Sequence record: OZ346160.1
DNA: 51,691 nt
DNA from: a phage
Reading direction: 5' to 3' (one strand)
Shown here: in pieces, positions 1-49,115 of the stretch
Numbering within the stretch: the stretch's first letter is position 1
Layout: every line of letters starts with the position of its first letter
Made by a program: the position numbers and the translations under genes
The notes under the pieces: generated by a model
What the model was told of the DNA's origin: nothing
The model's input: only the letters and a program-made list of their open reading frames with translations
Databases searched by the model: none

Positions 1-1569
1 ATGATCATATGGGAAGATTTGACGGCGGCGCAAAAGCGAGCCATTAAAGAAATCAGTGAGCATTCATTCGAAAAGATGATCAGAATCTGGTTCCAATTAT
101 TGCAGGGGCAGAAATTCCAGAGCAACTGGCATTTTAGCTTATTGTGCAGTGAGGTAGAGAAGATCATCAATGGAGAGTCGCAGAATGTGATTTTCAACAT
201 TACGCCAGGTAGCGGCAAGACTGAGATTTTCTCGATCCACATGTCACCCTACGCGTCATTGAAAAGCCGGAAAGTGAGAAACCTTAACCTTTCGTTTAGT
301 GATGGCCTTGTCCAGCAAAACAGCAACCGGATAAAGGAGATTATCGGTTCTCCTGAGTGGCAAGAGCTATGGCCTGGAAAACTGGCAAAGGCGAGCGCTA
401 AAGATCTGATAGTCACCGAAGGCGGCAAGGTTAAATTGCAAGTTAACTCACGTTCTATTGGCGGCCAGGTAACAGGTTTGCGTGGCGGCTATATGGATGA
501 TGGTTTTACTGGTATGCTGGTTCTTGACGATCCAGACAAGCCGGATGATATGCTTTCTAAGGTCAAGCGCGAGGCTATTCACATGCGGTTAAAAAACACA
601 GTGCGATCGCGTCGAATGAAAGACACCACGCCAATTGTTATGGTGCAACAGCGACTACACGTTAATGATTCCACCTGGTTCATGCTTAATGGCGGGATGG
701 GTGGTATTGAGTTTAAAGTCGTGAGCATTCCGGCGCTGGTTACGAAAGAATACCGCGAAACGCTTCCTGATTGGTTGAAGCCTGAATTTGATCGTGATGT
801 GCTGTCAAGTAAGCCAGTGATGATAGATGGCGTCGCTCATTATTCATTTTGGCCTGCGAAGGAAAGCGCGGAGGAGTTGCTTGCATTGCGCAATGCAGAT
901 CCTTACACGTTTGCCAGTCAATACCAACAGCAACCAATCGCGCTTGGCGGGAACGTGTTTAAAACAGAGTGGTTCCAGTATTACGGCAGCGGCGAAAAGT
1001 GCGCACTACCAAAACCGGATCGCTTTGAATACACATTTATTACTGGAGATACCGCGCAGAAGGCCGGAGAGCTTAACGACTATTCAGTTTTTTGTTATTG
1101 GGGGATGTATAAGAATCGCGTTTACTTCATTGATGGCATTCGCGGAAAGTGGGAAGCGCCGGATCTTGAATTAAATTTTATTGCCTTCGTTAACCAGTGC
1201 TGGAAGCGCAATAAGGAGTGTGGCAGCTTGCGACGTATCCACATTGAGGATAAGGCCAGCGGCACTGGTTTGATTCAGGGGGCCAAAAAGAAGATCCCGA
1301 TTGATATAAATCCCGTTCAGCGAAGCAATGACAAGGTAACGCGAGCAATGGACGCCGCGCCAGTGATGAGGGCCGGACGTGTGGCGCTGCCAGAAAATCA
1401 CCCCATGCTGCCTGAGATACTGGCAGAGGTTGCAGCATTCACTTTTGATGATTCTCATCCCCATGATGATATTGTCGATAATATAGTTGATGCTGTTAAC
1501 GTCGAAATGAACTTGGCAGATGATCCGGTGGCAAGGATGAAAAAGCTGGCTGGTCTACGCAATAAATAG
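1..1569 (+). CDS. terL: terminase large subunit
   Basis: 522-aa ORF beginning at base 1, directly upstream of portal gene; size and position fit a packaging ATPase/nuclease; family call from recall, no search. Confidence 0.75.
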   Translation: MIIWEDLTAAQKRAIKEISEHSFEKMIRIWFQLLQGQKFQSNWHFSLLCSEVEKIINGESQNVIFNITPGSGKTEIFSIHMSPYASLKSRKVRNLNLSFSDGLVQQNSNRIKEIIGSPEWQELWPGKLAKASAKDLIVTEGGKVKLQVNSRSIGGQVTGLRGGYMDDGFTGMLVLDDPDKPDDMLSKVKREAIHMRLKNTVRSRRMKDTTPIVMVQQRLHVNDSTWFMLNGGMGGIEFKVVSIPALVTKEYRETLPDWLKPEFDRDVLSSKPVMIDGVAHYSFWPAKESAEELLALRNADPYTFASQYQQQPIALGGNVFKTEWFQYYGSGEKCALPKPDRFEYTFITGDTAQKAGELNDYSVFCYWGMYKNRVYFIDGIRGKWEAPDLELNFIAFVNQCWKRNKECGSLRRIHIEDKASGTGLIQGAKKKIPIDINPVQRSNDKVTRAMDAAPVMRAGRVALPENHPMLPEILAEVAAFTFDDSHPHDDIVDNIVDAVNVEMNLADDPVARMKKLAGLRNK

Positions 1570-1595
1570 CACTAATTGCTAAAAAGTTATATAAT
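1565..1595 (+). promoter_or_regulatory. conserved intergenic cassette copy (variant AATAGCACTAATTGCTAAAAAG + TATAAT)
   Basis: Motif overlaps terL stop TAG; TATAAT at 1590..1595; followed by hairpin and T-run. Confidence 0.5.
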
Positions 1596-1596
1596 C

Positions 1597-1625
1597 AAGG
1601 CTGGATTTTTCCAGCCTTTTTTATT
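1597..1625 (+). terminator. rho-independent terminator/attenuator between terL and portal
   Basis: AAGGCTGG-attttt-CCAGCCTT followed by T-run. Confidence 0.55.
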
Positions 1626-5362: not shown

Positions 5363-6376
5363 ATGGCTTATGAAAATTTAATGCTGAACTATGCATGTCC
5401 TGGCAATCTCTCTGATACTTCAACCTATAACATTGATGGCGCTTGTGTTGCTCAAGGTGATATTGAGTTTGGATCAGCGGTTCGGGTTGTCGGAATAGTG
5501 GATGGAATGAGGGTTGTGACGGCGCTTTCTGATGGTGAAACTCCTTACGGCATCGCTTTTCGTTCACAATATGAGCACCTGAGCGGTAAAATTCTCGACG
5601 GAGAGGTGTGTAACGTCGTTTCTCACGGTCGGGTGTGGGCGCTTACTTCTCTTAGTGAAGCCCCGAAATCATTCTCAAAACTAAAAATCGGTGTTGGAGG
5701 AGTAGTAACTGGCGTAGATGATTATGTTGGCTGGACCTTTGCTGGTGGCTTTGTTAAGCACGAAGACGGTCACATTATTGAGGTTCAGGTGAAGCAAAAT
5801 GCTCTCATCGTTCCACCCCCTCCGCCTCCTGTGGTGCTGGTAGAGTCTGCAACAATTAACACTGACAAGGAGAGTCCGCAGCCAAACAATGCTCCCGTAA
5901 AATGCAGTATCACAGTAGAGCCTGGCAACGCCACCGATAAAACTGGTGTTTGGTCTGTTGATGCTGTAAACATTGCGACTATTGATGCCGATACCGGTAT
6001 TCTAACTCCTGTTGGTGGTGATGCATTCGGTAGTGTAAACGTAAGTTGGACGGCTAACGATGCAAGCAAGACTAAGGCCACGATTGTTTATCAATTCGAA
6101 AAAGCTGTTGTTAGCGTCGCTAGTGCAACCGTAAGCCTTGAGAAAAATTCTGCAATTGTTGGTGAAACCGTTCAGGCGAGCGTTGTCGTTGCTCCAGAAG
6201 ATGCTACCAATAAATCCGGTTCTTGGTCTTTGTCAAGTGGTGATTTTGCATCTGTAGATCCTGGTACTGGACTAGTAACTACTATCGCCGCTGGCGAGGT
6301 TGATGTTATCTGGACCGCTGCTGATGGTTCTGGCGTTAAAGGTCAGCAAAGACTAACCATTACCGATCCTGAATAA
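5363..6376 (+). CDS. head decoration-like protein with poly-Pro linker and two Ig-like (Big_2-type) C-terminal domains
   Basis: Start taken at MAYENL (GGAG RBS 9 nt upstream); N-terminal domain paralogous to 4823..5302; PPPPPP linker; two similar repeats of about 90 aa rich in T/S/V. Confidence 0.5.
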   Translation: MAYENLMLNYACPGNLSDTSTYNIDGACVAQGDIEFGSAVRVVGIVDGMRVVTALSDGETPYGIAFRSQYEHLSGKILDGEVCNVVSHGRVWALTSLSEAPKSFSKLKIGVGGVVTGVDDYVGWTFAGGFVKHEDGHIIEVQVKQNALIVPPPPPPVVLVESATINTDKESPQPNNAPVKCSITVEPGNATDKTGVWSVDAVNIATIDADTGILTPVGGDAFGSVNVSWTANDASKTKATIVYQFEKAVVSVASATVSLEKNSAIVGETVQASVVVAPEDATNKSGSWSLSSGDFASVDPGTGLVTTIAAGEVDVIWTAADGSGVKGQQRLTITDPE

Positions 6377-6395
6377 CATAAAAACGCTTTGACGC

Positions 6396-6414
6396 TTTAA
6401 CAAAAAGTGCTATC
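6396..6414 (+). promoter_or_regulatory. conserved motif, inverted orientation, embedded in sigma70-like promoter upstream of major capsid gene
   Basis: TTTAACAAAAAGTGCTAT lies between TTGACG (6388..6393) and TATCAT (6410..6415), 16-nt spacer. Confidence 0.45.
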
Positions 6415-9415: not shown

Positions 9416-10078
9416 ATGCACTTGCCTAATGGTTCTCAAATTTTCATCGGCGTTAATATGGGTGAGCCTATTCAGGCTACGGCTATTTCAAATGCTGATG
9501 ATCCTGTTTTTACGACTGCAAACACTCAAAGCATCAAAAAAGGCGCTTATGTTCTTATTGAAACATCTTCCTGGGGCAAACTTGTTAGTCGCGTGCTTCG
9601 AGTTAAGGAGGTATCAGATGATGCAAGCGTTACTCTTGAGGGTGTAAGCACGAAAGACACCAATGTTTTTCCGGCTGGTTCTAATACAGCAACTTTCCGA
9701 GAGGTGAAATCTTGGGTAGAGATTCCTTGCGTACAGGATCTTGCGCAGGACGGCGGCGAACAACAGTATTACACTTATCAGTGTTTGGCTGATGACCAGG
9801 AGCAGCAGTTACCGACCTATAAGAGCGCCGTTTCTCTTACCTACACTTTCGCGCATGAATATGATAACCCGATTTATCCGATCTTGCGCGAGGCTGAGGA
9901 ATCCGGCGACGTAACCGCTTTGCGTATGTACGTTCCGAAAGCTAAAGAGATGCGTTGCTGGGCTGGCGTATTGTCCTTTAATGACATTCCGCAAACCACT
10001 ATGAACGAAATGGAAACTGTTTCCCTTTCCGTATCTCTGAAAGGTCGATTTACGTTCTTATCTTCCGACATCAATTAA
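9416..10078 (+). CDS. major tail protein
   Basis: 220 aa; AGGAGG RBS; followed by strong terminator; precedes chaperone and tape measure genes. Confidence 0.6.
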   Translation: MHLPNGSQIFIGVNMGEPIQATAISNADDPVFTTANTQSIKKGAYVLIETSSWGKLVSRVLRVKEVSDDASVTLEGVSTKDTNVFPAGSNTATFREVKSWVEIPCVQDLAQDGGEQQYYTYQCLADDQEQQLPTYKSAVSLTYTFAHEYDNPIYPILREAEESGDVTALRMYVPKAKEMRCWAGVLSFNDIPQTTMNEMETVSLSVSLKGRFTFLSSDIN

Positions 10079-10081
10079 AAC

Positions 10082-10106
10082 AAGGGGCGTTGCGCCCCTT
10101 TTTTCA
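10082..10106 (+). terminator. rho-independent terminator after major tail gene
   Basis: AAGGGGCG-ttg-CGCCCCTT followed by T6. Confidence 0.65.
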
Positions 10107-10145
10107 TTCCTGTAAAATCAATCTATCAAATAAATCAATTCCACT

Positions 10146-10164
10146 TTTAACAAAAAGTGCTATA
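10146..10164 (+). promoter_or_regulatory. conserved motif, inverted orientation, upstream of tail chaperone/tape measure operon
   Basis: TTTTAACAAAAAGTGCTAT immediately followed by AAGGAG RBS and ATG 10178. Confidence 0.45.
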
Positions 10165-16019: not shown

Positions 16020-16063
16020 ATAGCACAATATGTTAAAGCGAAAACGGATTTTCGCTTTACAAT
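16019..16063 (+). promoter_or_regulatory. degenerate cassette copy upstream of HNH endonuclease
   Basis: AATAGCACAATATGTTAAAGC overlapping I-like gene stop; hairpin GCGAAAA..TTTTCGC; TACAAT at 16058..16063 (motif positions 40-45). Confidence 0.45.
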
Positions 16064-16080
16064 TAATTAAGGAGGTGATC

Positions 16081-20410: not shown

Positions 20411-21049
20411 ATGGCTGAATATGGAGCAATGTTATCTTTACCAAATGGGAATCCATTTATCACACCAAAATCAACGCCATTTTGCTTATATGGCAAGTAC
20501 ACTTATTCATCTTCTGGCACTTCTGCCTATCATAGCGCAAGCGCAAATATACCATTAAATCAATCTTATCCATGTATGGCATTTATAAAAACAACAAACA
20601 CACAGCAGCCAACCGCATTAATAGCTTACAGGAACGGTGGCAACATTTATGTAAACGGAGGCAATCCATACGGGCAATCATTTACAATGACTGTTTATAT
20701 ATTTGCTATCTTCCCTCAAACTCTACCCAAATATGGTATGGCAATATGGGATGAAAGCGGAAAGTTGGTTTTAACTAATGAGAGCAGGGTACTAACAGAC
20801 CTTGTAACAATTGGTACTCCTGGATCTTCTGGTGGGACGAATATAGATCAGACATTGTCTGGTTCTTATGCTGTTTGCCCATCAAGGCTTGGTGCGGTTA
20901 TAGGTATGGGTGCGTCTGACATATACACATCGTGCAGGTATAATGGTTCAAGCACAAGGATAAGTGCGGCAAGGACAACTCCAGGAACAGGATCTATAAC
21001 AAACAACGGAAATTCAATAATTGCAATAAAGACTGATATTTACGACTAA
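20411..21049 (+). CDS. hypothetical tail-associated protein (MAEYG family)
   Basis: Start MAEYGAMLS; contains internal repeat of the MAEYG/WD..G motif (KYGMAIWDESGK); bidirectional terminator downstream. Confidence 0.45.
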   Translation: MAEYGAMLSLPNGNPFITPKSTPFCLYGKYTYSSSGTSAYHSASANIPLNQSYPCMAFIKTTNTQQPTALIAYRNGGNIYVNGGNPYGQSFTMTVYIFAIFPQTLPKYGMAIWDESGKLVLTNESRVLTDLVTIGTPGSSGGTNIDQTLSGSYAVCPSRLGAVIGMGASDIYTSCRYNGSSTRISAARTTPGTGSITNNGNSIIAIKTDIYD

Positions 21050-21051
21050 TT

Positions 21052-21083
21052 AAAAAAAGGGGCTTTTGCCCCTTTGTTTTTAT
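21052..21083. terminator. bidirectional terminator between convergent tail and lipoprotein genes
   Basis: A-run, GGGGC-tttt-GCCCC, T-run. Confidence 0.6.
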
Positions 21084-21311: not shown

Positions 21312-21340
21312 CTTTTCATCTCCTTTGTTGTTGTTGGTTC

Positions 21341-21385
21341 AACTATACACGATTTTAAGGCGCGCGTTTAGCAAAAAGTGCTACT
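21341..21385 (-). promoter_or_regulatory. cassette copy upstream of Cor-like lipoprotein gene
   Basis: Reverse-complement reads AGTAGCACTTTTTGCTAAACG followed by TATAGT about 39 nt downstream. Confidence 0.45.
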
Positions 21386-23200: not shown

Positions 23201-23857
<657 letters not shown>

Positions 23858-23860
23858 TAA

Positions 23861-23884
23861 ACGGGGCGCTTGCGCCCCTTTTGT
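23861..23884 (+). terminator. rho-independent terminator between Erf-like gene and ssb
   Basis: GGGGCGC-tt-GCGCCCC followed by TTTT. Confidence 0.55.
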
Positions 23885-23900
23885 CATAGGAGAAAACAAA

Positions 23901-26611: not shown

Positions 26612-26646
26612 AAATAGCACTTTTTGCTAATGACAATTCAGATAAT
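26612..26646 (+). promoter_or_regulatory. conserved motif copy adjacent to tail fibre start (inverted relative to that gene)
   Basis: AATAGCACTTTTTGCTAATGAC then GATAAT; on - strand the motif abuts AGGAGG RBS of the tail fibre gene. Confidence 0.4.
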
Positions 26647-26661
26647 AGCATTTTCAAATGC

Positions 26662-26688
26662 AAAAAAAAACCCCGCATAAGCGGGGCA
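26662..26688 (-). terminator. rho-independent terminator after primase (- strand)
   Basis: On - strand CCCCGC-ttat-GCGGGG followed by T9. Confidence 0.6.
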
Positions 26689-28174: not shown

Positions 28175-28219
28175 CATAGCATTTTTTGTTAAAACAGTTT
28201 ATTGTAATGAGTCTATTAT
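28175..28219 (+). promoter_or_regulatory. cassette copy upstream of helicase
   Basis: CATAGCATTTTTTGTTAAAAC; TATTAT at motif positions 40-45. Confidence 0.5.
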
Positions 28220-28251
28220 ATACTCCAAATGGCATTTTTTAAAGGTTTAAG

Positions 28252-30249: not shown

Positions 30250-30668
30250 TGGCTATAACTGATAAAGGAGATTATCTTGAGTTTTACGAAAGGGATCCAA
30301 CCGACACGAGAAGGGAAGTTAATCACCAGATAGATAGTTTTCAGTGGTTGACTTATGCTCATCCTTATTTGCTGGCGTGGCATACGGTAAACGAGAATGA
30401 GAAGTCTAAAGCAACGGCGATGATTGATCAGCAGTCCGGCTTGGTTAAGGGAGTAAGCGATTTCATCATCCTGATTGGTTTAAACGGAAAATACCCCTTT
30501 GCAGCGATTGAGATCAAACGAGTGAATAAATCAGGCAAGGGGAAAGCATCACCAGTCAGCGATGAACAAAAGGCTTTTTTGCGTCGCGTTCGCAGCTTAG
30601 GAGGATTCGCTGCGGTAGCCTACGGATTCAATCAGTTTAAGTTGGCTATTGAATACATGCTTAAATAG
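30249..30668 (+). CDS. VRR-NUC family nuclease
   Basis: 139 aa; PD-(D/E)xK signature GVSDFIIL..AIEIKR; start overlaps helicase stop (TAATG). Confidence 0.55.
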   Translation: MAITDKGDYLEFYERDPTDTRREVNHQIDSFQWLTYAHPYLLAWHTVNENEKSKATAMIDQQSGLVKGVSDFIILIGLNGKYPFAAIEIKRVNKSGKGKASPVSDEQKAFLRRVRSLGGFAAVAYGFNQFKLAIEYMLK

Positions 30669-30708
30669 CACTTTTTGTTAAAACTGGCGCGATGGATTGC
30701 GCCATAAT
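30664..30708 (+). promoter_or_regulatory. cassette copy upstream of Dam methylase
   Basis: AATAGCACTTTTTGTTAAAAC overlapping upstream stop TAG; hairpin GGCGC..GCGCC; CATAAT at 30703..30708. Confidence 0.55.
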
Positions 30709-30748
30709 TCAATAACACGAGATGGCTTTTAATAGCGGAGAAATGAAA

Positions 30749-31478: not shown

Positions 31479-31736
31479 ATGGAAAAAGAGAGAAGCGTTT
31501 ATTTAAATGAAACTGGCGAGTGGTTGTTATTTCGCGCTATGGTGTGCGATGCACTTGATAAAAACCCTAACGTGAAAAAGATGATTGATTGCGATCCGTG
31601 GGAATTTTCAAGCGCATTAGATATGAGCTTTGAGGAGACAAGAAAACTCCCGCTTGAAAAATGGCACGAACAAATCAGAAATGACATGCAAGAGTTTGTT
31701 GATTCGTGGAATTTTCAGCACGGAATGATCCACTAA
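31479..31736 (+). CDS. hypothetical protein
   Basis: 85-aa ORF; stop codon embedded in cassette motif. Confidence 0.45.
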   Translation: MEKERSVYLNETGEWLLFRAMVCDALDKNPNVKKMIDCDPWEFSSALDMSFEETRKLPLEKWHEQIRNDMQEFVDSWNFQHGMIH

Positions 31737-31779
31737 TAGCACTTTTTGTTAAAACGCCCGGCCTAGTGTCGGGCATAAT
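31735..31779 (+). promoter_or_regulatory. cassette copy
   Basis: Consensus motif overlapping stop; hairpin GCCCGG..CGGGC; CATAAT at 31774..31779. Confidence 0.55.
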
Positions 31780-31811
31780 TATTTCAACGAAGCAAACATG
31801 AGGAAATAAAA

Positions 31812-33433: not shown

Positions 33434-33480
33434 TGAATTTTTATTTAAATCAATGACAAATTAAATCAAAAACTTGCAAA

Positions 33481-33510
33481 GGGGCGGCGTTTGTCGCCTC
33501 TTTTTTTTGT
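33481..33510 (+). terminator. terminator-like element before lysis cassette
   Basis: GC-rich imperfect hairpin followed by T8. Confidence 0.4.
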
Positions 33511-34916: not shown

Positions 34917-34952
34917 AATTTTACCTTTTGGTTGTTTCGTTTCGATGAAACA

Positions 34953-34997
34953 AATATACCCGACACTAGGCCGGGCGTTTTAACAAAAAATGCTATT
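34953..34997 (-). promoter_or_regulatory. cassette copy (near-identical inverted copy of 31735..31779)
   Basis: Reverse-complement AATAGCATTTTTTGTTAAAACGCCCGGCCTAGTGTCGGGTATATT. Confidence 0.55.
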
Positions 34998-37086: not shown

Positions 37087-37114
37087 TCGTTAGCTTCTCC
37101 TTTGTGGGCCGTAA

Positions 37115-37159
37115 ATTTTAACGGCCCAATACTACCCCGTTTTGTCAAAAAGTGCTATT
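37115..37159 (-). promoter_or_regulatory. cassette copy (TTGACA variant) upstream of P-loop NTPase gene
   Basis: AATAGCACTTTTTGACAAAAC; hairpin GGGCCG..CGGCCC; TAAAAT at positions 40-45. Confidence 0.5.
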
Positions 37160-37759: not shown

Positions 37760-37788
37760 GATCAGATCTCCTTTGTTTGTTCGGTGTG

Positions 37789-37833
37789 ATTATGCCAGGT
37801 TTTTACACCTGGCTTTTAACAAAAAGTGCTATT
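37789..37833 (-). promoter_or_regulatory. cassette copy
   Basis: Consensus motif overlapping methyltransferase stop; hairpin CCAGG..CCTGG; CATAAT at 40-45. Confidence 0.55.
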
Positions 37834-39956: not shown

Positions 39957-39987
39957 TTTTAAATCCTCGTTCGTTGTCGATGCGCTT

Positions 39988-40032
39988 AATATACCAATCA
40001 GAGGCGCATCGGTTTTAACAAAAAGTGCTATT
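39988..40032 (-). promoter_or_regulatory. cassette copy
   Basis: Consensus motif; hairpin CGATGCGC..GCGCATCG with TATATT in loop. Confidence 0.5.
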
Positions 40033-40451: not shown

Positions 40452-40484
40452 TTTCAAATCCTCGCATTCGTTGTCGATGCGTGT

Positions 40485-40529
40485 AATGTACAGGAATACG
40501 AGGATTTAGTTTTAACAAAAAGTGCTATT
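40485..40529 (-). promoter_or_regulatory. cassette copy
   Basis: Consensus motif overlapping stop of 40529..40792; leader nearly identical to 39988..40032 copy. Confidence 0.5.
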
Positions 40530-41754: not shown

Positions 41755-41789
41755 TTACTATCTCCTGAGCGGTTCGTTTTGATGGGATA

Positions 41790-41834
41790 ACTATACCAGG
41801 TTATCCCGATCAGCTTTTAACAAAAAGTGCTATT
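41790..41834 (-). promoter_or_regulatory. cassette copy
   Basis: Consensus motif overlapping stop; hairpin GGGATAAC..GTTATCCC; TATAGT at 40-45. Confidence 0.55.
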
Positions 41835-42136: not shown

Positions 42137-42176
42137 TGTTTGGTCCTCAGTAAGTGCGGTTCGTTTCGATGTGTGT

Positions 42177-42221
42177 AATGTACCCGATCAGGTGGCCTGA
42201 GTTTTAACAAAAAGTGCTATT
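42177..42221 (-). promoter_or_regulatory. cassette copy (first of - strand array)
   Basis: Consensus motif; TACATT at 40-45. Confidence 0.5.
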
Positions 42222-42499: not shown

Positions 42500-42770
42500 T
42501 AAGGATTATTTATTTATATGTATCTATATATTCTCTTTTGTTATCTTGGTTATTGTGGTATTTGGTGGGGGTATATAGTTTTTGTGTATCTATATGTGTG
42601 TATGGGTATGTAGGGGCATATATATCTATATGGCACTTTCCGCGAGAAAACTTCGATAACAAGCAATGATAACATTGATTTATAAGGAAAAATAACGCCC
42701 ATATTGTTATTGTGCCACCATATAAAATTGATAAAACACGCGGGAACAAGAAAAAACAGTTGACACATTA
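42500..42770. repeat. AT/TG-rich regulatory region, paralogue B
   Basis: Diverged direct repeat of 21490..21700; internal direct repeat TTCCGC..GATAACAA (about 42450..42680). Confidence 0.5.
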
Positions 42771-42788
42771 AATAGCATTATTGATAAT
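42760..42788 (+). promoter_or_regulatory. sigma70 promoter (start of + strand small-gene array)
   Basis: TTGACA (42760..42765) - 17 nt - GATAAT (42783..42788); AGGAGG RBS and ATG 42817 follow. Confidence 0.6.
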
Positions 42789-42816: not shown

Positions 42817-43281
42817 ATGAGCGAGCAATCATTCACTGACACGCTGCGCCGTGCCGCTATTATGCTGGCTAATGGCGAGGAAGAGACGATCAAGATTCCT
42901 GACGCGTATTTGCAGGTCCACATGTTCGGCAAGAAGTCGGCAAGCAATCCGGCGGCCTACATTCGCCAGATCATGAGTCGAGTGCCAGAAGTCGCCGAGC
43001 GGGGGCGCGTATCCGTTACCCGTGGCGTTTACGGGCCGGAAGATGAAAACTTCGGTAGCACTTTCTACGAGGTAAGGATTGTTGAAGGCCGTCGCAAGGT
43101 TTACAACAAAGAGGCACTGGAAAGGGCAGTACGCCAGGCTAAGCGCAAGGTTGCAGAGGCGATCATTGATATGTCACCCAACCTGGCAAACTATGCGCCG
43201 GAAGAGTATGAAACATTATCAAAGGCCGTCGCTGACTTTCACGCGATGATCAAAAAAACTTTCCTGGAGGATGAGCAATGA
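42817..43281 (+). CDS. hypothetical protein
   Basis: Start MSEQSF with AGGAGG RBS; first gene after consensus sigma70 promoter. Confidence 0.5.
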   Translation: MSEQSFTDTLRRAAIMLANGEEETIKIPDAYLQVHMFGKKSASNPAAYIRQIMSRVPEVAERGRVSVTRGVYGPEDENFGSTFYEVRIVEGRRKVYNKEALERAVRQAKRKVAEAIIDMSPNLANYAPEEYETLSKAVADFHAMIKKTFLEDEQ

Positions 43282-43550
43282 AAAAGGCGTTAATCGGCGT
43301 TTTGGCGGCAATGGCATTCCTGACCGGATGCAAAGAAGATGGCGCGCATGTTGGCAATGTGCAGATGGCTAACCCTGGCGATGACTACAGCGTAAGGGAG
43401 CTATTCACCGCCGATGGTTGCACTGTTTACCGATTCTATGACGGTCGCACTGTTTACTTCACCAACTGCAAGGGCACTACTAGCTGGGAAGTGTCGAAAA
43501 GCAATGGCAAAGGCACGAAGACAGAACATATGACCGTCGAGACAAAATAG
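43278..43550 (+). CDS. small lipoprotein
   Basis: 90 aa; signal peptide with lipobox FLTGC; coupled (ATGA) to upstream gene. Confidence 0.55.
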   Translation: MKKALIGVLAAMAFLTGCKEDGAHVGNVQMANPGDDYSVRELFTADGCTVYRFYDGRTVYFTNCKGTTSWEVSKSNGKGTKTEHMTVETK

Positions 43551-43590
43551 CACTTTTTGTTAAAACGCCAGGCGCAAAGCCTGGCATAAT
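43546..43590 (+). promoter_or_regulatory. cassette copy
   Basis: Consensus motif overlapping stop; perfect hairpin GCCAGGC-gcaaa-GCCTGGC; CATAAT 43585..43590. Confidence 0.55.
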
Positions 43591-43622
43591 AGCCTCATCG
43601 AAACGAGATTGAGGAAACAAAA

Positions 43623-43808
43623 ATGGCACGTCGCATCACCAAAGACCTTAAAGTCCTGAACAAAGAAAACGTAGTTAAAATCCTGGTTATCTGGGGCTAC
43701 AACGAAGAAACAGCAAAGCAGAAGGTAGAGGCAGGTTATGACCTGGCTGTGAAAGCAATGCCAAACGACGACGCCAAAGGCATTGCAAACTATGTAGCTT
43801 TCTTTTAA
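43623..43808 (+). CDS. hypothetical protein
   Basis: 61-aa ORF about 75 nt downstream of cassette. Confidence 0.45.
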   Translation: MARRITKDLKVLNKENVVKILVIWGYNEETAKQKVEAGYDLAVKAMPNDDAKGIANYVAFF

Positions 43809-43823
43809 TTAGCAGGTGAATAA

Positions 43824-44009
43824 ATGAAAACGAAATTAGTCCATAAGTCAGAAATCAAGATCGGCGATACTGTGATTCACAACGGAGAGCTTAGAACGGT
43901 TGGCAAAGAGTCAATAAGCCACGATGAATTTATGGGGATCTTGTTGTTCGGTGACTCTTATCGTCTTGGTTACAAGATGGTTGAGCTTGTGGAAGAAGTG
44001 AAATTCTAA
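43824..44009 (+). CDS. hypothetical protein
   Basis: 61-aa ORF. Confidence 0.45.
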   Translation: MKTKLVHKSEIKIGDTVIHNGELRTVGKESISHDEFMGILLFGDSYRLGYKMVELVEEVKF

Positions 44010-44053
44010 ATAGCACTTTTTGTTAAAACTCAAAAACGATAACCAGGCATAAT
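44009..44053 (+). promoter_or_regulatory. cassette copy
   Basis: Consensus motif after stop TAA; CATAAT 44048..44053; hairpin GGGCG..CGCCC downstream. Confidence 0.5.
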
Positions 44054-44108
44054 AAATCACATAGGGCGGCACGGGGTCGCCCAGTTAAACCAATCAGGAG
44101 AAAGCACC

Positions 44109-45002: not shown

Positions 45003-45045
45003 ATAGCACGAATTGTTAAAACTCAAATGTGGGGCCAGGTATAAT
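45002..45045 (+). promoter_or_regulatory. cassette copy (GAATTG variant)
   Basis: AATAGCACGAATTGTTAAAAC; hairpin GGGCC..GGCCC with TATAAT in loop (45040..45045). Confidence 0.5.
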
Positions 45046-45075
45046 GGCCCTACTTTCAACGAGAGGGGAAACGCG

Positions 45076-45721: not shown

Positions 45722-46428
45722 AAAAATACACTTTCGAACTGTGGGGCAAAAAGTACGAATTAATCACCAGCAAGCCGATTGTTATCGTTGACCTGGACGG
45801 CACATTATCGGACGGATCGCATCGTTTGCATTTGCTGCCAACTGAAAACTTGCACCTTACGGAATCGTGGCGCGAGTTTAACAGGGCCGCCGCCGGAGAT
45901 TCACCGATTAAAAGCACTATCGCGGTTATTAACGGTTTATGGGTGTCGGGATTTGCCATCGTCATCTTGACCGGACGCAGCGACGAGGTTCGCTATGAAA
46001 CCTGCAAATGGTTGAATGAGAACGGCGTGAAGTTTGACGAAATCATCATGCGCCGCCAGGAGGACAACCGAAAGGATACGGTTATTAAAGAAGAAGCCTT
46101 GCGCGCTATTGGCCTGGACAACATTGTTTGCGCCTTTGACGATTCGCCTAACGTGGTTAAGCACTTCCGCAGCTTGGGGATCACAACCTATCAGGTCACG
46201 GAATACGACAAGCCACACGCTCACATACAATCTCACGGCGTGGAATCAATCAAGATCACGAAGCGCGCCCGATTCGTCGGCAGCAAAGACAGCCTGGTCA
46301 ATGCCAGTTTTACCAGAGGAATAGCCTATGACGTTGTTTCTTATCATGACAAGAGTTTTATAGTTCATGATGATTCTGGATGCGCCTGGTCATTCAATCA
46401 TAGTGACGGCGATTTTGTTAATGCGTAA
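45718..46428 (+). CDS. HAD-superfamily phosphatase (polynucleotide 3'-phosphatase-like)
   Basis: Start MKKYTF; HAD motif I VIVDLDGTL near N-terminus. Confidence 0.6.
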   Translation: MKKYTFELWGKKYELITSKPIVIVDLDGTLSDGSHRLHLLPTENLHLTESWREFNRAAAGDSPIKSTIAVINGLWVSGFAIVILTGRSDEVRYETCKWLNENGVKFDEIIMRRQEDNRKDTVIKEEALRAIGLDNIVCAFDDSPNVVKHFRSLGITTYQVTEYDKPHAHIQSHGVESIKITKRARFVGSKDSLVNASFTRGIAYDVVSYHDKSFIVHDDSGCAWSFNHSDGDFVNA

Positions 46429-46471
46429 TAGCACTTTTTGTTAAAACATCTCAACGGGCTTGCGGTATAGT
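46427..46471 (+). promoter_or_regulatory. cassette copy
   Basis: Consensus motif after stop; hairpin GGGCTT..AAGCCC with TATAGT in loop (46466..46471). Confidence 0.5.
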
Positions 46472-46502
46472 AAGCCCATCAACAACAAACGAGGATTAAA
46501 TC

Positions 46503-47158: not shown

Positions 47159-47749
47159 ATGAAACGAGACATTATCATCCTTAATGGGCCGCCAGGTTGC
47201 GGGAAGGACACTATTGCAGCTTACCTAACTGGCCATCGTTACCCTGCCGTCAAGGCGTCATTCAAACAGCCGATGTTCGATATTGCTTTTTCTATGCTGG
47301 GCGTGTACCGATACGATGAATTTATGGACCTGTACAACGACCGAGAGCAAAAAGAAAAGCCTCAAGTTATCTTGGGCGGCAAGTCACCTCGACAATTCAT
47401 GATCTGGATTAGCGAGGACGTAATGAAGCCAGTTTTTGGGGATCACTATTTCGGGCGTCGAATGGTTGAAGAGATTCACGAGATGTACCGAGATTTGGCG
47501 GTTGTGATCAGTGATGGCGGATTCCCCGAAGAAATCAAGCCGCTGGTTAAGGCAGGGCATGAAGTGCATATTTGCCGATTGCATCGCGACGGCTTCACGT
47601 TTGCTGGCGATTCGAGAGACTACATTGACCTGAGCGGTTATCACTATCGAATCCACCACTATGATTTCCACTTGCAGGACGGCAAGCCAGATCTGGCTGT
47701 AAACGAGATCGTCAATACGGTCAAATGGAAGCACACACAGATTAAATAG
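47159..47749 (+). CDS. P-loop nucleotide/polynucleotide kinase (putative)
   Basis: 196 aa; Walker A ILNGPPGCGKDT at N-terminus; same array as HAD phosphatase. Confidence 0.55.
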   Translation: MKRDIIILNGPPGCGKDTIAAYLTGHRYPAVKASFKQPMFDIAFSMLGVYRYDEFMDLYNDREQKEKPQVILGGKSPRQFMIWISEDVMKPVFGDHYFGRRMVEEIHEMYRDLAVVISDGGFPEEIKPLVKAGHEVHICRLHRDGFTFAGDSRDYIDLSGYHYRIHHYDFHLQDGKPDLAVNEIVNTVKWKHTQIK

Positions 47750-47789
47750 CACGAATTGCTAAACGCGGGGTTATCGGCCCCGCTATAAT
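47745..47789 (+). promoter_or_regulatory. cassette copy (GAATTGCTAAAC variant)
   Basis: Motif overlapping stop TAG; hairpin GCGGGG..CCCCGC; TATAAT 47784..47789. Confidence 0.55.
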
Positions 47790-47819
47790 GCTCACATCAA
47801 CAATCAAGAGGAAATCACA

Positions 47820-48749: not shown

Positions 48750-49040
48750 ATGGCAAACAAAACTTACCGCAAACTACTGGTTAACGCTTTTGAAAACATC
48801 GCGCAGTCTAACAAGTGGAACGACTCTAAACACTCGCCAGTCACAATGAAGCGCGCCGGATTCAAAAATGCTCGTTCATGGGCGCGAGCTTTCGCAGCTT
48901 GCTATATGCCGGATGGTGGGCTAGGAACGATGAACGATTTTTTGATCAACATGATAGAGGAAGCGGCGCGAGAGGATCGACCGCTGACACAGCGAGATTT
49001 TGACGACTTCGCGCGCGATGAGCTTTACTATCTGAGCTAA
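48750..49040 (+). CDS. hypothetical protein
   Basis: 96-aa ORF; stop embedded in cassette motif. Confidence 0.45.
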   Translation: MANKTYRKLLVNAFENIAQSNKWNDSKHSPVTMKRAGFKNARSWARAFAACYMPDGGLGTMNDFLINMIEEAAREDRPLTQRDFDDFARDELYYLS

Positions 49041-49083
49041 TAGCACTTTTTGTTAAAACTTCCGCAAGGGCATTTGATAAAGT
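49039..49083 (+). promoter_or_regulatory. cassette copy
   Basis: Consensus motif after stop TAA; hairpin AAGGGCA..TGCCCTT with GATAAA in loop. Confidence 0.5.
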
Positions 49084-49115
49084 GCCCTTATTGAAGCGAA
49101 ACAGAGGAAAGCGCA

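What the first reader, a model, noticed from the sequence alone, without database searches (positions are those of the whole stretch)
43546..43590. Cassette spacers form GC-rich hairpins with compensatory changes, and the motif overlaps the upstream stop codon
Between motif and hexamer each copy carries a different but self-complementary stem (GCCAGGC/GCCTGGC, GGCGC/GCGCC, GCGGGG/CCCCGC, GGGCTT/AAGCCC, AAGGGCA/TGCCCTT, GGGATAAC/GTTATCCC). Covariation implies selection for structure, not sequence. The motif routinely begins inside the TAA or TAG of the upstream gene (A-TAG-CAC), so it is transcribed as a 3' UTR. This suggests a dual element: an RNA stem-loop (stability, processing or attenuation of upstream transcripts) fused to a downstream promoter.
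Basis: partly seen in the sequence, partly recalled or inferred. Interest (0 to 1): 0.7.

Follow-up and report, generated by a model that had tools for sequence, protein, structure and literature searches.

The report
Promoter-embedded RNA hairpin cassettes in T1-like phage
Between many genes of this T1-like coliphage sits a repeated unit: a 20-base motif holding the upstream stop codon, an RNA hairpin, and a promoter for the next gene. This resembles the "PeSL" cassettes of T4-like phages and offers a testable answer to the open question of what the T1-group 21-base repeat does.

Summary
The window is a complete T1-like (Drexlerviridae) phage with 22 copies of ATAGCACTTTTTGTTAAAAC-N18-TAtAaT-N6-CA(+1)TCGAAAC-SD-ATG. 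In 15 of 22 copies the 40 nt after the motif fold far better than shuffles.

Only about 7 stems lie between motif and hexamer. Six enclose the hexamer and end near -1, and about 7 copies have no local stem.

Across about 400 copies from related phages:
- Stems covary within families.
- G:T mismatches outnumber A:C 83 to 4.
- Tetraloops are GNRA or UNCG on the sense strand only.
- Hairpins go with a co-oriented upstream ORF that ends at the motif. Its stop is the motif's own TAG in 183 of 268 cases.

Most stems lack a U-tract, so they are not canonical terminators.

The motif is the known 21-nt repeat of TLS, T1 and Rtp, whose function is listed as unknown. The whole architecture matches PeSL cassettes of T4-type phages, including recombination junctions at the motif. 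The same motif and leader also occur in 174-180 kb T4-like phages, there around canonical terminators.

Verdict: a new variant of a known kind. Function is untested.

The parts
43278..43550 (+). Upstream ORF (90 aa, PHROG 6360, unknown function). Its stop codon TAG 43548-43550 lies inside the motif.
43547..43566 (+). Focal 20-nt motif ATAGCACTTTTTGTTAAAAC, at -50 to -31 relative to the predicted start. It equals the 21-nt direct repeat of TLS, T1 and Rtp.
   Evidence: PMC11447400
43567..43585 (+). Focal type-1 hairpin GCCAGGC-GCAAA-GCCTGGC, filling the N18 spacer. Its last C is the -12 base of the hexamer.
   Evidence: (-15.7 kcal/mol, z -3.7)
43582..43590 (+). Extended -10-like TGgCATAAT (T-15, G-14, hexamer 43585-43590).
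43597..43622 (+). Predicted +1 (the A of CA) and conserved leader ATCGAAACGAG...GAGGAA (SD).
   Evidence: the same leader occurs in an RB49 PeSL
43623..43808 (+). Downstream ORF (61 aa, PHROG 7717). It has a 77% nt homologue in RB49 ORF117c.
1566..1618 (+). Copy after the large-terminase gene. The motif is followed by a canonical terminator hairpin 1597-1618 with a T-run. There is no -10 at N18.
6363..6413 (-). Copy antisense to the late genes. No hairpin and a poor -10 (TATTCA).
10112..10163 (-). Copy antisense to the late genes. It has an AT-rich 15-bp hairpin and faces the bidirectional terminator at 10073-10107.
16020..16070 (+). Copy with a type-1 hairpin at 16036-16057 and -10 TACAAT.
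21334..21384 (-). Copy heading a lone minus-strand gene. No significant hairpin and no upstream co-oriented ORF.
26614..26664 (+). Copy antisense to the tail-fibre gene start. No hairpin, a poor -10, and it faces a terminator.
28176..28226 (+). Copy at the head of the rightward helicase operon, in a divergent region. No hairpin.
30665..30715 (+). Copy with a type-1 hairpin at 30685-30704 (TGGCGCGA/TTGCGCCA). It precedes the DNA methyltransferase gene.
31736..31786 (+). Copy with a type-1 hairpin at 31756-31774 containing a G.U pair.
34946..34996 (-). Copy with a type-1 hairpin at 34958-34976. Its spacer is identical to that of copy 31736 on the other strand.
37105..37158 (-). Copy with a type-2 hairpin at 37105-37128 enclosing TAAAAT. 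It precedes a helicase gene.
37782..37832 (-). Copy with a type-1 hairpin at 37794-37813.
39978..40031 (-). Copy with a type-2 hairpin at 39978-40011 (CGATGCGC/GCGCATCG) enclosing the -10.
40455..40528 (-). Copy with no local hairpin. A 15-bp long-range stem at 40455-40508 pairs the spacer with the leader and SD of the downstream gene.
41780..41833 (-). Copy with a type-2 hairpin at 41780-41812 (GGGATAAC/GTTATCCC).
42166..42220 (-). First copy of the leftward operon. Only a weak, non-significant stem, and no upstream co-oriented ORF.
44010..44060 (+). Copy with no hairpin. Its spacer is the one joined directly to the focal upstream gene in phage JK16.
45003..45053 (+). Copy with a type-2 hairpin at 45029-45053 enclosing TATAAT.
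46428..46478 (+). Copy with a type-2 hairpin at 46456-46477 (GGGCTT/AAGCCC).
47746..47796 (+). Copy with a type-1 hairpin at 47765-47783 (GCGGGG/CCCCGC).
49040..49090 (+). Copy with a type-2 hairpin at 49066-49089 (AAGGGCA/TGCCCTT). This family shows the strongest covariation.

Best explanation
Each element is a compact intergenic expression cassette of the PeSL (promoter-early stem-loop) type. It has four parts.

1. A 20-nt motif at -50 to -31. It terminates the upstream reading frame through its own TAG, or its TAA at +14. It probably also gives host sigma70 RNA polymerase an upstream, UP-like contact in place of a -35 hexamer.
2. An extended -10 promoter that starts transcription at a conserved CA seven bases downstream.
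3. A conserved A-rich leader with a Shine-Dalgarno sequence.
4. A GC-rich hairpin squeezed into the sequence-free parts of the promoter. Type 1 has both arms in the N18 spacer. Type 2 has the 5' arm in the spacer and the 3' arm in the discriminator, with the -10 in the loop.

The 5' arm is always upstream of +1. The hairpin therefore forms only in sense RNA that reads in from the upstream gene, and there it is the 3'-UTR structure of that gene. I commit to this mechanism: it insulates the cassettes from one another by attenuating or pausing read-through transcription and by marking and protecting the 3' end of the upstream message. Each small gene is then expressed mainly from its own promoter.

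The repeated motif and leader also serve as homology for recombination that swaps, deletes or inserts gene cassettes.

Shown: the anatomy, selection for sense-strand pairing, linkage to upstream ORFs, and mosaic junctions at the motif. Inferred: promoter activity, the RNA effect, and the motif's partner.
For: - Repeats and promoter signals. G-14 is at 86%, A-11 at 91%, T-7 at 89%, C-1 at 79% and A+1 at 89%, across 321 unique copies.
- Hairpin excess: (15/22 copies with z below -2.4).
- Covariation: (8/9 pairs change on both sides; score 0.542 against 0.178; 0 of 500 shuffles reach it). (17 families, 97% of cells paired against 37-44% with slid partners).
- Sense-RNA signature: G:T 83 against A:C 4; GNRA or UNCG 18/31 on the sense strand against 2/31 on the antisense strand.
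- Link to the upstream gene: window 14/16 against 1/6. Wide sample 215/241 against 25/52, p = 3e-10. By family 41/53 against 5/16, p = 0.0016.
- Stop codon inside the motif.
- Recombination at the motif: BLAST hits split at query positions 289 and 268, the motif edges. In JK16 the upstream gene and motif are fused to the spacer of copy 44010, with two genes absent. Breakpoints are enriched: 13/126 against 4% expected, p = 0.002.
- Known analogue: PMC2839356. PeSLs start at the upstream stop codon and carry a stem-loop between -35 and -10 or overlapping -10, with G-T pairs. One stem-loop terminated as well as rrnB T1 in a lacZ assay, and recombination between PeSLs shuffles ORFans.
- Direct sequence link: an RB49 PeSL shares the -10 and the ACACCCATCGAAACGAA leader. 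T4-like 174-180 kb phages carry the same ATAGCACTTTTTG(T/C)T motif around canonical terminators.
- No phage RNA polymerase was found: the largest uncharacterised ORF is a tail fibre, and the TLS paper finds no RNAP or sigma gene in TLS.
Against: - Most stems have no U-tract. T content after type-1 stems is no higher than in hairpin-less copies (0.32 against 0.29, p = 0.73). Only 6/26 type-1 families and 0/21 type-2 families have 5 or more T in the 8-nt tail. Efficient intrinsic termination by the canonical mechanism is therefore unlikely here.
- About a third of window copies lack a local hairpin, including two with upstream genes (44010 and 40528).
- The motif does not fit a standard -35. TTGTTA would need a 22-bp spacer. 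It also sits closer to the core than a canonical UP element, so promoter activity is inferred only from the -10, +1 and leader conservation.
- The wide sample is not phylogenetically independent.
- ORF calling there used an open-frame length rule only.
- No transcript data exist.
Confidence: 0.55

Rival explanations
1. The hairpin is only a 3'-end stabiliser or processing landmark. After endonucleolytic cleavage in the A-rich leader, it blocks 3'-to-5' exonucleases and prolongs the life of the upstream cistron. It has no effect on transcription elongation.
For: - No U-tract is needed, and none is enriched.
- The position is free (type 1, 2 or 3) so long as the stem follows the stop codon.
- Stable GNRA and UNCG loops occur.
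- Hairpins are linked to upstream ORFs.
Against: - The homologous slot in T4-like phages holds canonical terminators with U-tracts.
- One RB49 stem-loop terminated strongly (PMC2839356).
- 6/26 type-1 families do have U-rich tails.
Confidence: 0.28
2. The inverted repeat acts at the DNA level, as a cruciform or single-strand hairpin that is part of promoter recognition. Possible modes are N4-like recognition, shortening of the 22-bp TTGTTA-to-hexamer spacer, or presenting the -10 in a loop.
For: - The stems lie inside the promoter.
- Type-2 stems put the -10 in the loop.
- TTGnTA resembles a -35 at the wrong distance.
Against: - A cruciform needs both strands, yet mismatches are 83 G:T against 4 A:C.
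- Hairpins track upstream ORFs, not promoters. Operon-head promoters lack them.
- Extruding a 19-nt hairpin would leave a 3-bp spacer.
- In T4-like copies a separate TTGC.. -35 sits at 17 bp, so TTGTTA is not the -35.
- No virion or phage RNA polymerase gene was found.
- The stems are short (6-9 bp) and type-2 loops long, which by established knowledge disfavours extrusion.
Confidence: 0.05
3. The hairpin is a terminator for antisense transcription. On the opposite strand the stem is followed by GUUUUAAC from the motif.
For: On the reverse strand, type-1 stems are followed directly by GTTTTAAC. The A-tract and stem geometry resembles half of a bidirectional terminator.
Against: - Pairing is selected on the sense strand. 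Mean MFE is -11.2 for the sense strand against -9.5 for the antisense strand.
- Type-2 stems end 6-12 nt from the T-run on the reverse strand.
- The T-run is only four bases.
Confidence: 0.04
4. The stems have no function. They are by-products of GC-rich spacers, or scars of recombination between repeats.
For: - Spacers are GC-rich, up to 78% against a 44-47% genome.
- Several copies lack stems.
- Copies are exchanged by recombination.
Against: - Dinucleotide shuffles of the same segments fold at about half the energy.
- Compensatory double changes occur.
- Strand-specific wobble and tetraloop bias are present.
Confidence: 0.03

Closest known systems
PeSL (promoter-early stem-loop) cassettes of T4-type phages RB49, phi1, T4/PST and KVP40/nt-1 (Arbiol et al. 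2010, PMC2839356; Comeau et al. 2014, PMC4122927)
   Same: [quoted passage not shown]
- An early-type promoter.
- A stem-loop placed between -35 and -10 or overlapping the -10, with G-T pairs.
- Many copies among small ORFans.
- Recombination between copies deletes or inserts genes.
- One RB49 PeSL even shares the -10, discriminator and CATCGAAACGAA leader, and the downstream gene.
   Different: - The host is a T1-like siphovirus; PeSLs are described only in T4-like myoviruses.
- There is no consensus -35. A nearly invariant 20-nt motif occupies -50 to -31 and itself carries the stop codon.
- The promoter is of the extended -10 type.
- Most stems lack a U-tract.
- Terminator and promoter activity are untested here.
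21-nt direct repeat aaATAGCACnnnTTGnTAAAA of phage TLS, also noted in T1, Rtp and Rogue1 (PMC11447400)
   Same: The sequence, the orientation with transcription, and the distance to the start codon (76 nt; focal 43547 to 43623) are all the same. The window motif is this repeat.
   Different: That paper describes only the 21-mer and leaves its function open, suggesting stoperator, enhancer site or UP-like element. In the main text and in the passages of Supplementary Table S1 that I retrieved, it does not report the -10 at N18, the conserved start and leader, the hairpins, the stop-codon overlap or the link to PeSLs.
Rho-independent (intrinsic) terminators
   Same: A GC-rich 6-10 bp stem, GNRA or UUCG tetraloops, and a position a ribosome footprint (about 16 nt) after the stop codon. 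In T4-like copies of the same element the slot holds full terminators.
   Different: There is no U-tract in 41 of 47 hairpin families, and no enrichment of T after the stem. The phage uses canonical terminators elsewhere, at 10073-10107, 21048-21082, 23853-23887 and 33478-33503.
UP elements of strong sigma70 promoters (rrnB P1, T5 and T4 early promoters)
   Same: A T-tract and an A-tract separated by three bases (TTTTTGTTAAAA). In the T4-like copies the tracts fall at about -52 and -43, where alpha-CTD subsites lie. The two spacing classes, 38 and 49, differ by one helical turn.
   Different: In this phage the tracts sit at -43 to -32, overlapping the -35 position. The invariant ATAGCAC part is not A/T-tract-like. 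Binding by alpha-CTD is not tested.
Intercistronic mRNA stabiliser hairpins (for example REP in malE-malF, or the puf operon stem-loops)
   Same: A stable stem-loop just 3' of a cistron, lacking a U-tract, in polycistronic RNA. This comparison rests on my own knowledge of these systems, not on a tool result.
   Different: Here the hairpin is embedded in a promoter and tied to a fixed motif and a leader.

Membership tests
PeSL cassette | Intergenic unit bounded by the upstream stop codon and the downstream SD/ATG | tested here: met
   The stop lies in or abuts the motif in all 16 window copies that have an upstream co-oriented ORF. The SD and ATG lie about 76 nt from the motif start.
PeSL cassette | Sigma70-like early promoter with both -35 and -10 boxes | tested here: inconclusive
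   The -10, G-14 and CA start are strongly conserved. However, no -35 hexamer lies at 16-18 bp, and the consensus scan finds only 1 of the copies. Activity is not testable here.
PeSL cassette | Stable stem-loop between -35 and -10, or overlapping the -10 | tested here: met
   Type 1 stems end at -12 and type 2 at -1. G-T pairs are as described for PeSLs.
PeSL cassette | Many copies clustered among small non-essential ORFs | tested here: met
   16 of 22 copies lie in 28-50 kb among ORFans and replication genes.
PeSL cassette | Recombination between copies creates indels and replacements | tested here: met
   (JK16, FritzSarasin, herni).
PeSL cassette | Stem-loop terminates or attenuates transcription, and the promoter drives expression | not testable with these tools
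   Reporter or transcript mapping is needed. No T1-like transcriptome was found.
T1-group 21-nt direct repeat (TLS DR) | Consensus aaATAGCACnnnTTGnTAAAA, intergenic, oriented with transcription, about 76 nt before the start codon | tested here: met
   The exact 20-mer occurs in contigs with the genome lengths of TLS (49,902 bp, given in the paper) and, from my own knowledge, of T1 and Rtp.
Intrinsic terminator | GC-rich stem with a short loop | tested here: met
Intrinsic terminator | U-rich tract immediately 3' of the stem | tested here: not met
   It is met only in 6/26 type-1 families and in copies 31756 and 34976 by the scan.
UP element | A/T tracts at about -59 to -38, upstream of a -35 hexamer | tested here: not met
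   In this window the tracts are at -43 to -32 with no -35. The position is met only in the T4-like 49-spacing copies.
N4-type hairpin promoter | DNA hairpin recognised by a phage-encoded virion RNA polymerase | tested here: not met
   No RNAP gene was found: the 744-aa ORF is a tail fibre, and the TLS paper finds no RNAP or sigma gene in TLS. Hairpins track upstream ORFs, not promoters.
Sigma54 promoter | GG-N10-GC (TGGCAC-N5-TTGC) | tested here: not met
   Read directly from the sequence: TAGCAC has A in place of the invariant G, and in the TTGCTA variants the GC dinucleotide lies two bases short of the GG-N10-GC spacing.
Any Rfam family | Covariance-model match at gathering score | tested here: not met
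   0 matches in the whole window.

The most novel reading that the evidence does not exclude
The motif, hairpin and leader form a mobile expression cassette shared across unrelated phage families: T1-like siphoviruses and Karamvirus/RB49-type T4-like myoviruses of enterobacteria. Host RNA polymerase reads it directly through an UP-like contact that works at two helically equivalent distances (38 and 49 bp from the -10), which allows -35-independent early transcription. The embedded hairpin, including variants that sequester the downstream SD only in read-through RNA, makes each cassette transcriptionally and translationally autonomous. Any ORF dropped between two motifs is then correctly stopped, insulated and expressed.
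Probability: 0.3. Interest if true: 0.7.

Novelty: new variant of a known kind. Interest (0 to 1): 0.55.

Why it matters
[quoted passage not shown] This analysis turns that into a concrete, testable model.

- The repeat is the upstream half of a -35-less extended -10 promoter.
- It doubles as the stop codon of the preceding gene.
- It is followed by a sense-RNA hairpin belonging to that gene's transcript.

The model extends the PeSL concept, so far confined to T4-like myoviruses, to Drexlerviridae. The same motif and leader circulate between the two families, which bears on how ORFan genes move between phages.

The elements are also compact (about 76 nt), modular promoter, insulator and RBS parts. 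That is of practical interest for annotating and engineering the many therapeutic T1-like phages.

Tried and rejected
- **TTGTTA as the -35.** Rejected. The spacer would be 22 bp. In T4-like copies a separate TTGC.. hexamer sits at 17 bp while the motif is 11 bp further upstream.
- **Sigma54 reading of TAGCAC-N5-GTT.** Rejected on the invariant GG and on spacing.
- **Motif as an extended -10 (TGnTAAAAC).** Rejected because the last base is C, A or G and never T.
- **Phage RNA polymerase.** The 744-aa ORF is a tail fibre.
- **Canonical terminator reading.** I tested for T enrichment after the stems and found none.
- **Antisense-terminator and cruciform readings.** Rejected by the G:T versus A:C asymmetry and by tetraloop strandedness.
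- **Rfam.** No hits.
- **Ortholog search in IMG/VR loci using both flanks.** Only 0-2 orthologs per window copy were found, too few for per-copy covariation. I therefore used sequence-family clusters instead.
- **Largest cluster (84 sequences, the family of copy 41833).** It is heterogeneous in register. A fixed-register count gave only 74% paired against about 50% with slid partners, and no excess of double changes. I treat it as uninformative.
- **Alignment A3.** It mixed two registers, so I did not score it.
- **Literature searches** for the motif string and for T1-like transcriptomes. Apart from the TLS paper, nothing was found. A TTGTTAAAAC hit in the KlebPhaCol paper was an unrelated primer.
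Full report
**What the window is.** The 51,691-bp window is a complete T1-like siphophage genome. It is 95-98% identical over long stretches to Escherichia phages NorthRox, tunus, vB_EcoS-95 and swan01. Relatives fetched later are classified as Drexlerviridae, Tempevirinae, Warwickvirus or Hanrivervirus. Late genes run rightward from 1 to about 24 kb. The early and replication region (28-51 kb) is organised in short divergent operons full of small ORFs. No RNA polymerase gene was found: the largest uncharacterised ORF (744 aa) is a tail fibre.

**The repeated element.** The core GCACTTTTTGTTAAAAC occurs 19 times at 3 or fewer mismatches, against 0.34 expected. A wider search gives 22 true copies, always oriented with a downstream gene except three.

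In register the copies read ATAGCAC-TTTTT-GTTAAAAC, then N18, then a -10-like hexamer, N6 ending in CA, ATCGAAACGA, SD and ATG.

In 321 unique copies from related phages:
- The hexamer has A at its second position in 91% and T at its last in 89%.
- The base two before the hexamer is G in 86%, preceded by T in 42% (an extended -10 TGn).
- A C-A pair (79% and 89%) sits exactly seven bases after the hexamer, the canonical start position.
- A conserved ATCGAAAC leader follows.

The motif therefore occupies -50 to -31. Its TTGTTA would be 22 bp from the hexamer, so it is not a usable -35, and the sigma70 consensus scan misses all but one copy.

**Checking the hairpins.** The focal copy is as described: GCCAGGC-GCAAA-GCCTGGC at 43567-43585, scoring -15.7 kcal/mol against -7.4 for dinucleotide shuffles. 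Of the 22 copies, 15 fold with z below -2.4. The summed energy is twice that of the shuffles.

- Seven stems lie wholly within N18 and end at the first base of the hexamer (type 1: 43547, 30665, 31736, 34996, 37832, 47746, 16020).
- Six have their 3' arm in the discriminator, so the hexamer is in the loop and the stem ends near -1 (type 2: 49040, 41833, 46428, 40031, 45003, 37158).
- Five copies have no stem, one is weak, and 40528 has only a long-range stem.

In the wider sample the 3' end of the stem is sharply bimodal at -12 and -1.

**Is the pairing selected, and in which molecule?** Different stems in paralogous copies are not covariation proper, so I grouped about 400 copies from 120 IMG/VR loci of T1-like phages into sequence families.
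- In the family of copy 49040 (27 sequences), 8 of 9 pairs show changes on both sides. For example, AAGG[C/G/T]CA pairs with TG[G/C/A]CCTT.
- In that family 91.8% of cells pair, against 71% after shuffling and 32-48% after sliding the partner. No shuffle of 500 reaches the covariation score.
- Pooled over 17 families, 97% of cells pair against 37-44% with slid partners. Double-sided changes occur at 13 pairs against 1-8.
- Using stems defined strand-neutrally, internal mismatches are G:T 83 times (16 families) and A:C 4 times (2 families).
- Tetraloops are GNRA or UNCG in 18 of 31 cases on the sense strand, against 2 of 31 on the antisense strand.

The structure is therefore selected on the sense strand. 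This excludes a two-strand cruciform and an antisense terminator. Because the 5' arm always precedes the predicted +1, the hairpin can exist only in RNA entering from upstream.

**Link to the upstream gene.**
- In the window, 14 of 16 copies with a co-oriented upstream ORF ending at the motif have a hairpin, against 1 of 6 without one. Operon-head promoters 28176, 42220 and 21384 lack it.
- In the wide sample the figures are 215/241 against 25/52 (p = 3e-10). By family they are 41/53 against 5/16 (p = 0.0016).
- With a more inclusive ORF rule the association persists: 227/268 against 9/18, p = 0.001.
- The upstream ORF stops at the TAG of ATAGCAC in 183 of 268 cases, at the TAA of GTTAAAAC in 22, and at a TAA or TGA just before the motif in 42.
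- ATAG is conserved even where no ORF ends there, so it is part of the recognition sequence and not merely a stop codon.
- The hairpin begins about 16 nt after the TAG, roughly one ribosome footprint.

**Not a canonical terminator.**
- T content after type-1 stems equals that of hairpin-less copies (0.32 against 0.29, p = 0.73).
- Only 6 of 26 type-1 families and none of 21 type-2 families have 5 or more T in the next 8 nt.
- The phage does use textbook terminators elsewhere.

**What is known.** The motif is the 21-nt direct repeat aaATAGCACnnnTTGnTAAAA reported for TLS. That paper counts 18 intergenic copies about 76 nt before start codons and notes the repeat in T1, Rtp and Rogue1. The authors leave its function open and list it among unanswered questions. 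In the text and supplement passages I retrieved, they report neither the downstream -10 nor the hairpins (PMC11447400).

The whole architecture matches the PeSLs of T4-type phages RB49 and phi1:
- The upstream stop codon, an AT-rich tract and a sigma70 promoter.
- An SD and ATG.
- One stem-loop terminated as well as rrnB T1 in a lacZ assay.
- Recombination between PeSLs shuffles ORFans (PMC2839356; PMC4122927).

PeSLs have been described only in T4-like myoviruses.

**Cassette behaviour here.** BLAST of the focal locus against 50,697 phage records gives partial hits that end at query base 289 (the motif's last base) or begin at base 268 (one base before the motif).
- In JK16 the identical upstream gene and motif join directly to the spacer of window copy 44010, and the two genes at 43623-44009 are absent.
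- In FritzSarasin and herni the upstream gene is visibly divergent, while everything from the motif onward is identical (FritzSarasin) or nearly identical (herni).
- Homology breakpoints against the IMG/VR loci are enriched in the elements: 13/126 against 4% expected, p = 0.002. They cluster at the motif's two edges.

**Cross-family link.**
- The gene downstream of the focal element has a 77% nt homologue in RB49. The RB49 PeSL in front of it shares CATAAT-ACACC-CATCGAAACGAA but has TTGACA at 17 bp instead of the motif.
- In 174-180 kb T4-like phages (relatives of Cronobacter GAP161 and Enterobacter EC-W1), the same ATAGCACTTTTTG(T/C)T motif precedes a full terminator. That terminator has an A-tract, a 9-13 bp stem and a U-tract, and it contains a TTGC.. 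-35. It is followed by TATATT and the same leader.
- The distance from motif start to -10 is 49 in those copies and 38 in T1-likes, one helical turn apart.
- In the 49 class the T- and A-tracts fall where UP-element subsites lie.

This supports two inferences, neither tested: the hairpin slot derives from a terminator, and the motif is read by the host polymerase rather than by a phage-specific factor.

**Conclusion.** The element is a PeSL-type promoter and stem-loop cassette built on the T1-group repeat. Anatomy, selection on sense-RNA pairing, linkage to the upstream gene and recombination at the motif are shown. Promoter activity, the motif's binding partner, and whether the hairpin attenuates read-through or stabilises 3' ends are inferred. 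No transcript data for T1-like phages were found.

Noticed in passing
window 43623-43808; L124 711-896 (RB49 ORF117c): This 61-aa ORFan has a 77% nt homologue in T4-like RB49, kvi and related Krischvirus phages. The RB49 PeSL upstream of it shares the -10, discriminator and CATCGAAACGAA leader with the window elements. This suggests cassette exchange between sipho- and myoviruses.
   Followed up: partly
L141, L142, L162-L164, L184-L186, L209-L211, L226-L231 (174-180 kb T4-like contigs): The T1-group motif ATAGCACTTTTTG(T/C)T occurs in Karamvirus-type T4-like phages. There it is followed by a canonical terminator that contains a TTGC.. -35, then TATATT and the same leader. Spacing to the -10 is 49 against 38 in T1-likes, 11 bp or one helical turn. 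These genomes also hold a few T1-type (39-spacing) type-2 copies.
   Followed up: partly
window 40455-40508 (- strand): In copy 40528 a 15-bp stem (-19.8 kcal/mol, z -3.6) pairs the promoter spacer with the leader and Shine-Dalgarno sequence of the downstream gene. It cannot form in RNA started at the element's own +1. Read-through transcripts would therefore be translationally masked. Several other families show similar spacer-to-SD pairing.
   Followed up: partly
window 10112-10163 (-), 26614-26664 (+), 6363-6413 (-): Three motif copies point against the surrounding genes, have poor -10 hexamers and AT-rich spacers, and two face a bidirectional terminator about 30-50 nt away. They could make very short antisense RNAs, or act in the other orientation next to the RBS of genes 10178 and about 26594. 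Unexplained.
   Followed up: no
window 31756-31773 (+) and 34959-34976 (-): Two elements on opposite strands, 3 kb apart, carry the identical 18-nt spacer and hairpin GCCCGGCCTAGTGTCGGG. Their flanking genes differ. This is consistent with gene conversion between elements.
   Followed up: no
window 43548-43562 and all other copies: The motif contains an internal dyad TAGCA-N5-TG(C/T)TA. It is perfect in the TTGCTA variant and has a G.U-type wobble in the TTGTTA variant (69% T, 29% C). It folds as a weak 5-bp stem in sense RNA. It could instead mark a dimeric protein site.
   Followed up: no
window motif copies; offsets +1 and +14 from motif start: The motif closes two reading frames by itself (TAG at +1, TAA at +14). 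A TAA is often placed just upstream, so all three frames are closed by offset +16 in 100 of 337 copies. It acts as a built-in universal translational stop for whatever ORF lies upstream.
   Followed up: yes
window 42760-42788 (+) and 28215-28243 (-): Two of the best consensus sigma70 promoter matches in the early region sit in the two divergent regions: TTGACA-17-GATAAT (the top match, 11/12) and TTTAAA-17-TATAAT (10/12). They are candidates for immediate-early promoters, distinct from the motif-type promoters.
   Followed up: no
L179, L180 (147-148 kb contigs): The CATCGAAACG leader also follows a consensus TTGACA promoter directly upstream of what reads by eye like a tRNA gene, in about 148 kb myovirus contigs. 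The leader and start module therefore travels independently of the ATAGCAC motif.
   Followed up: no
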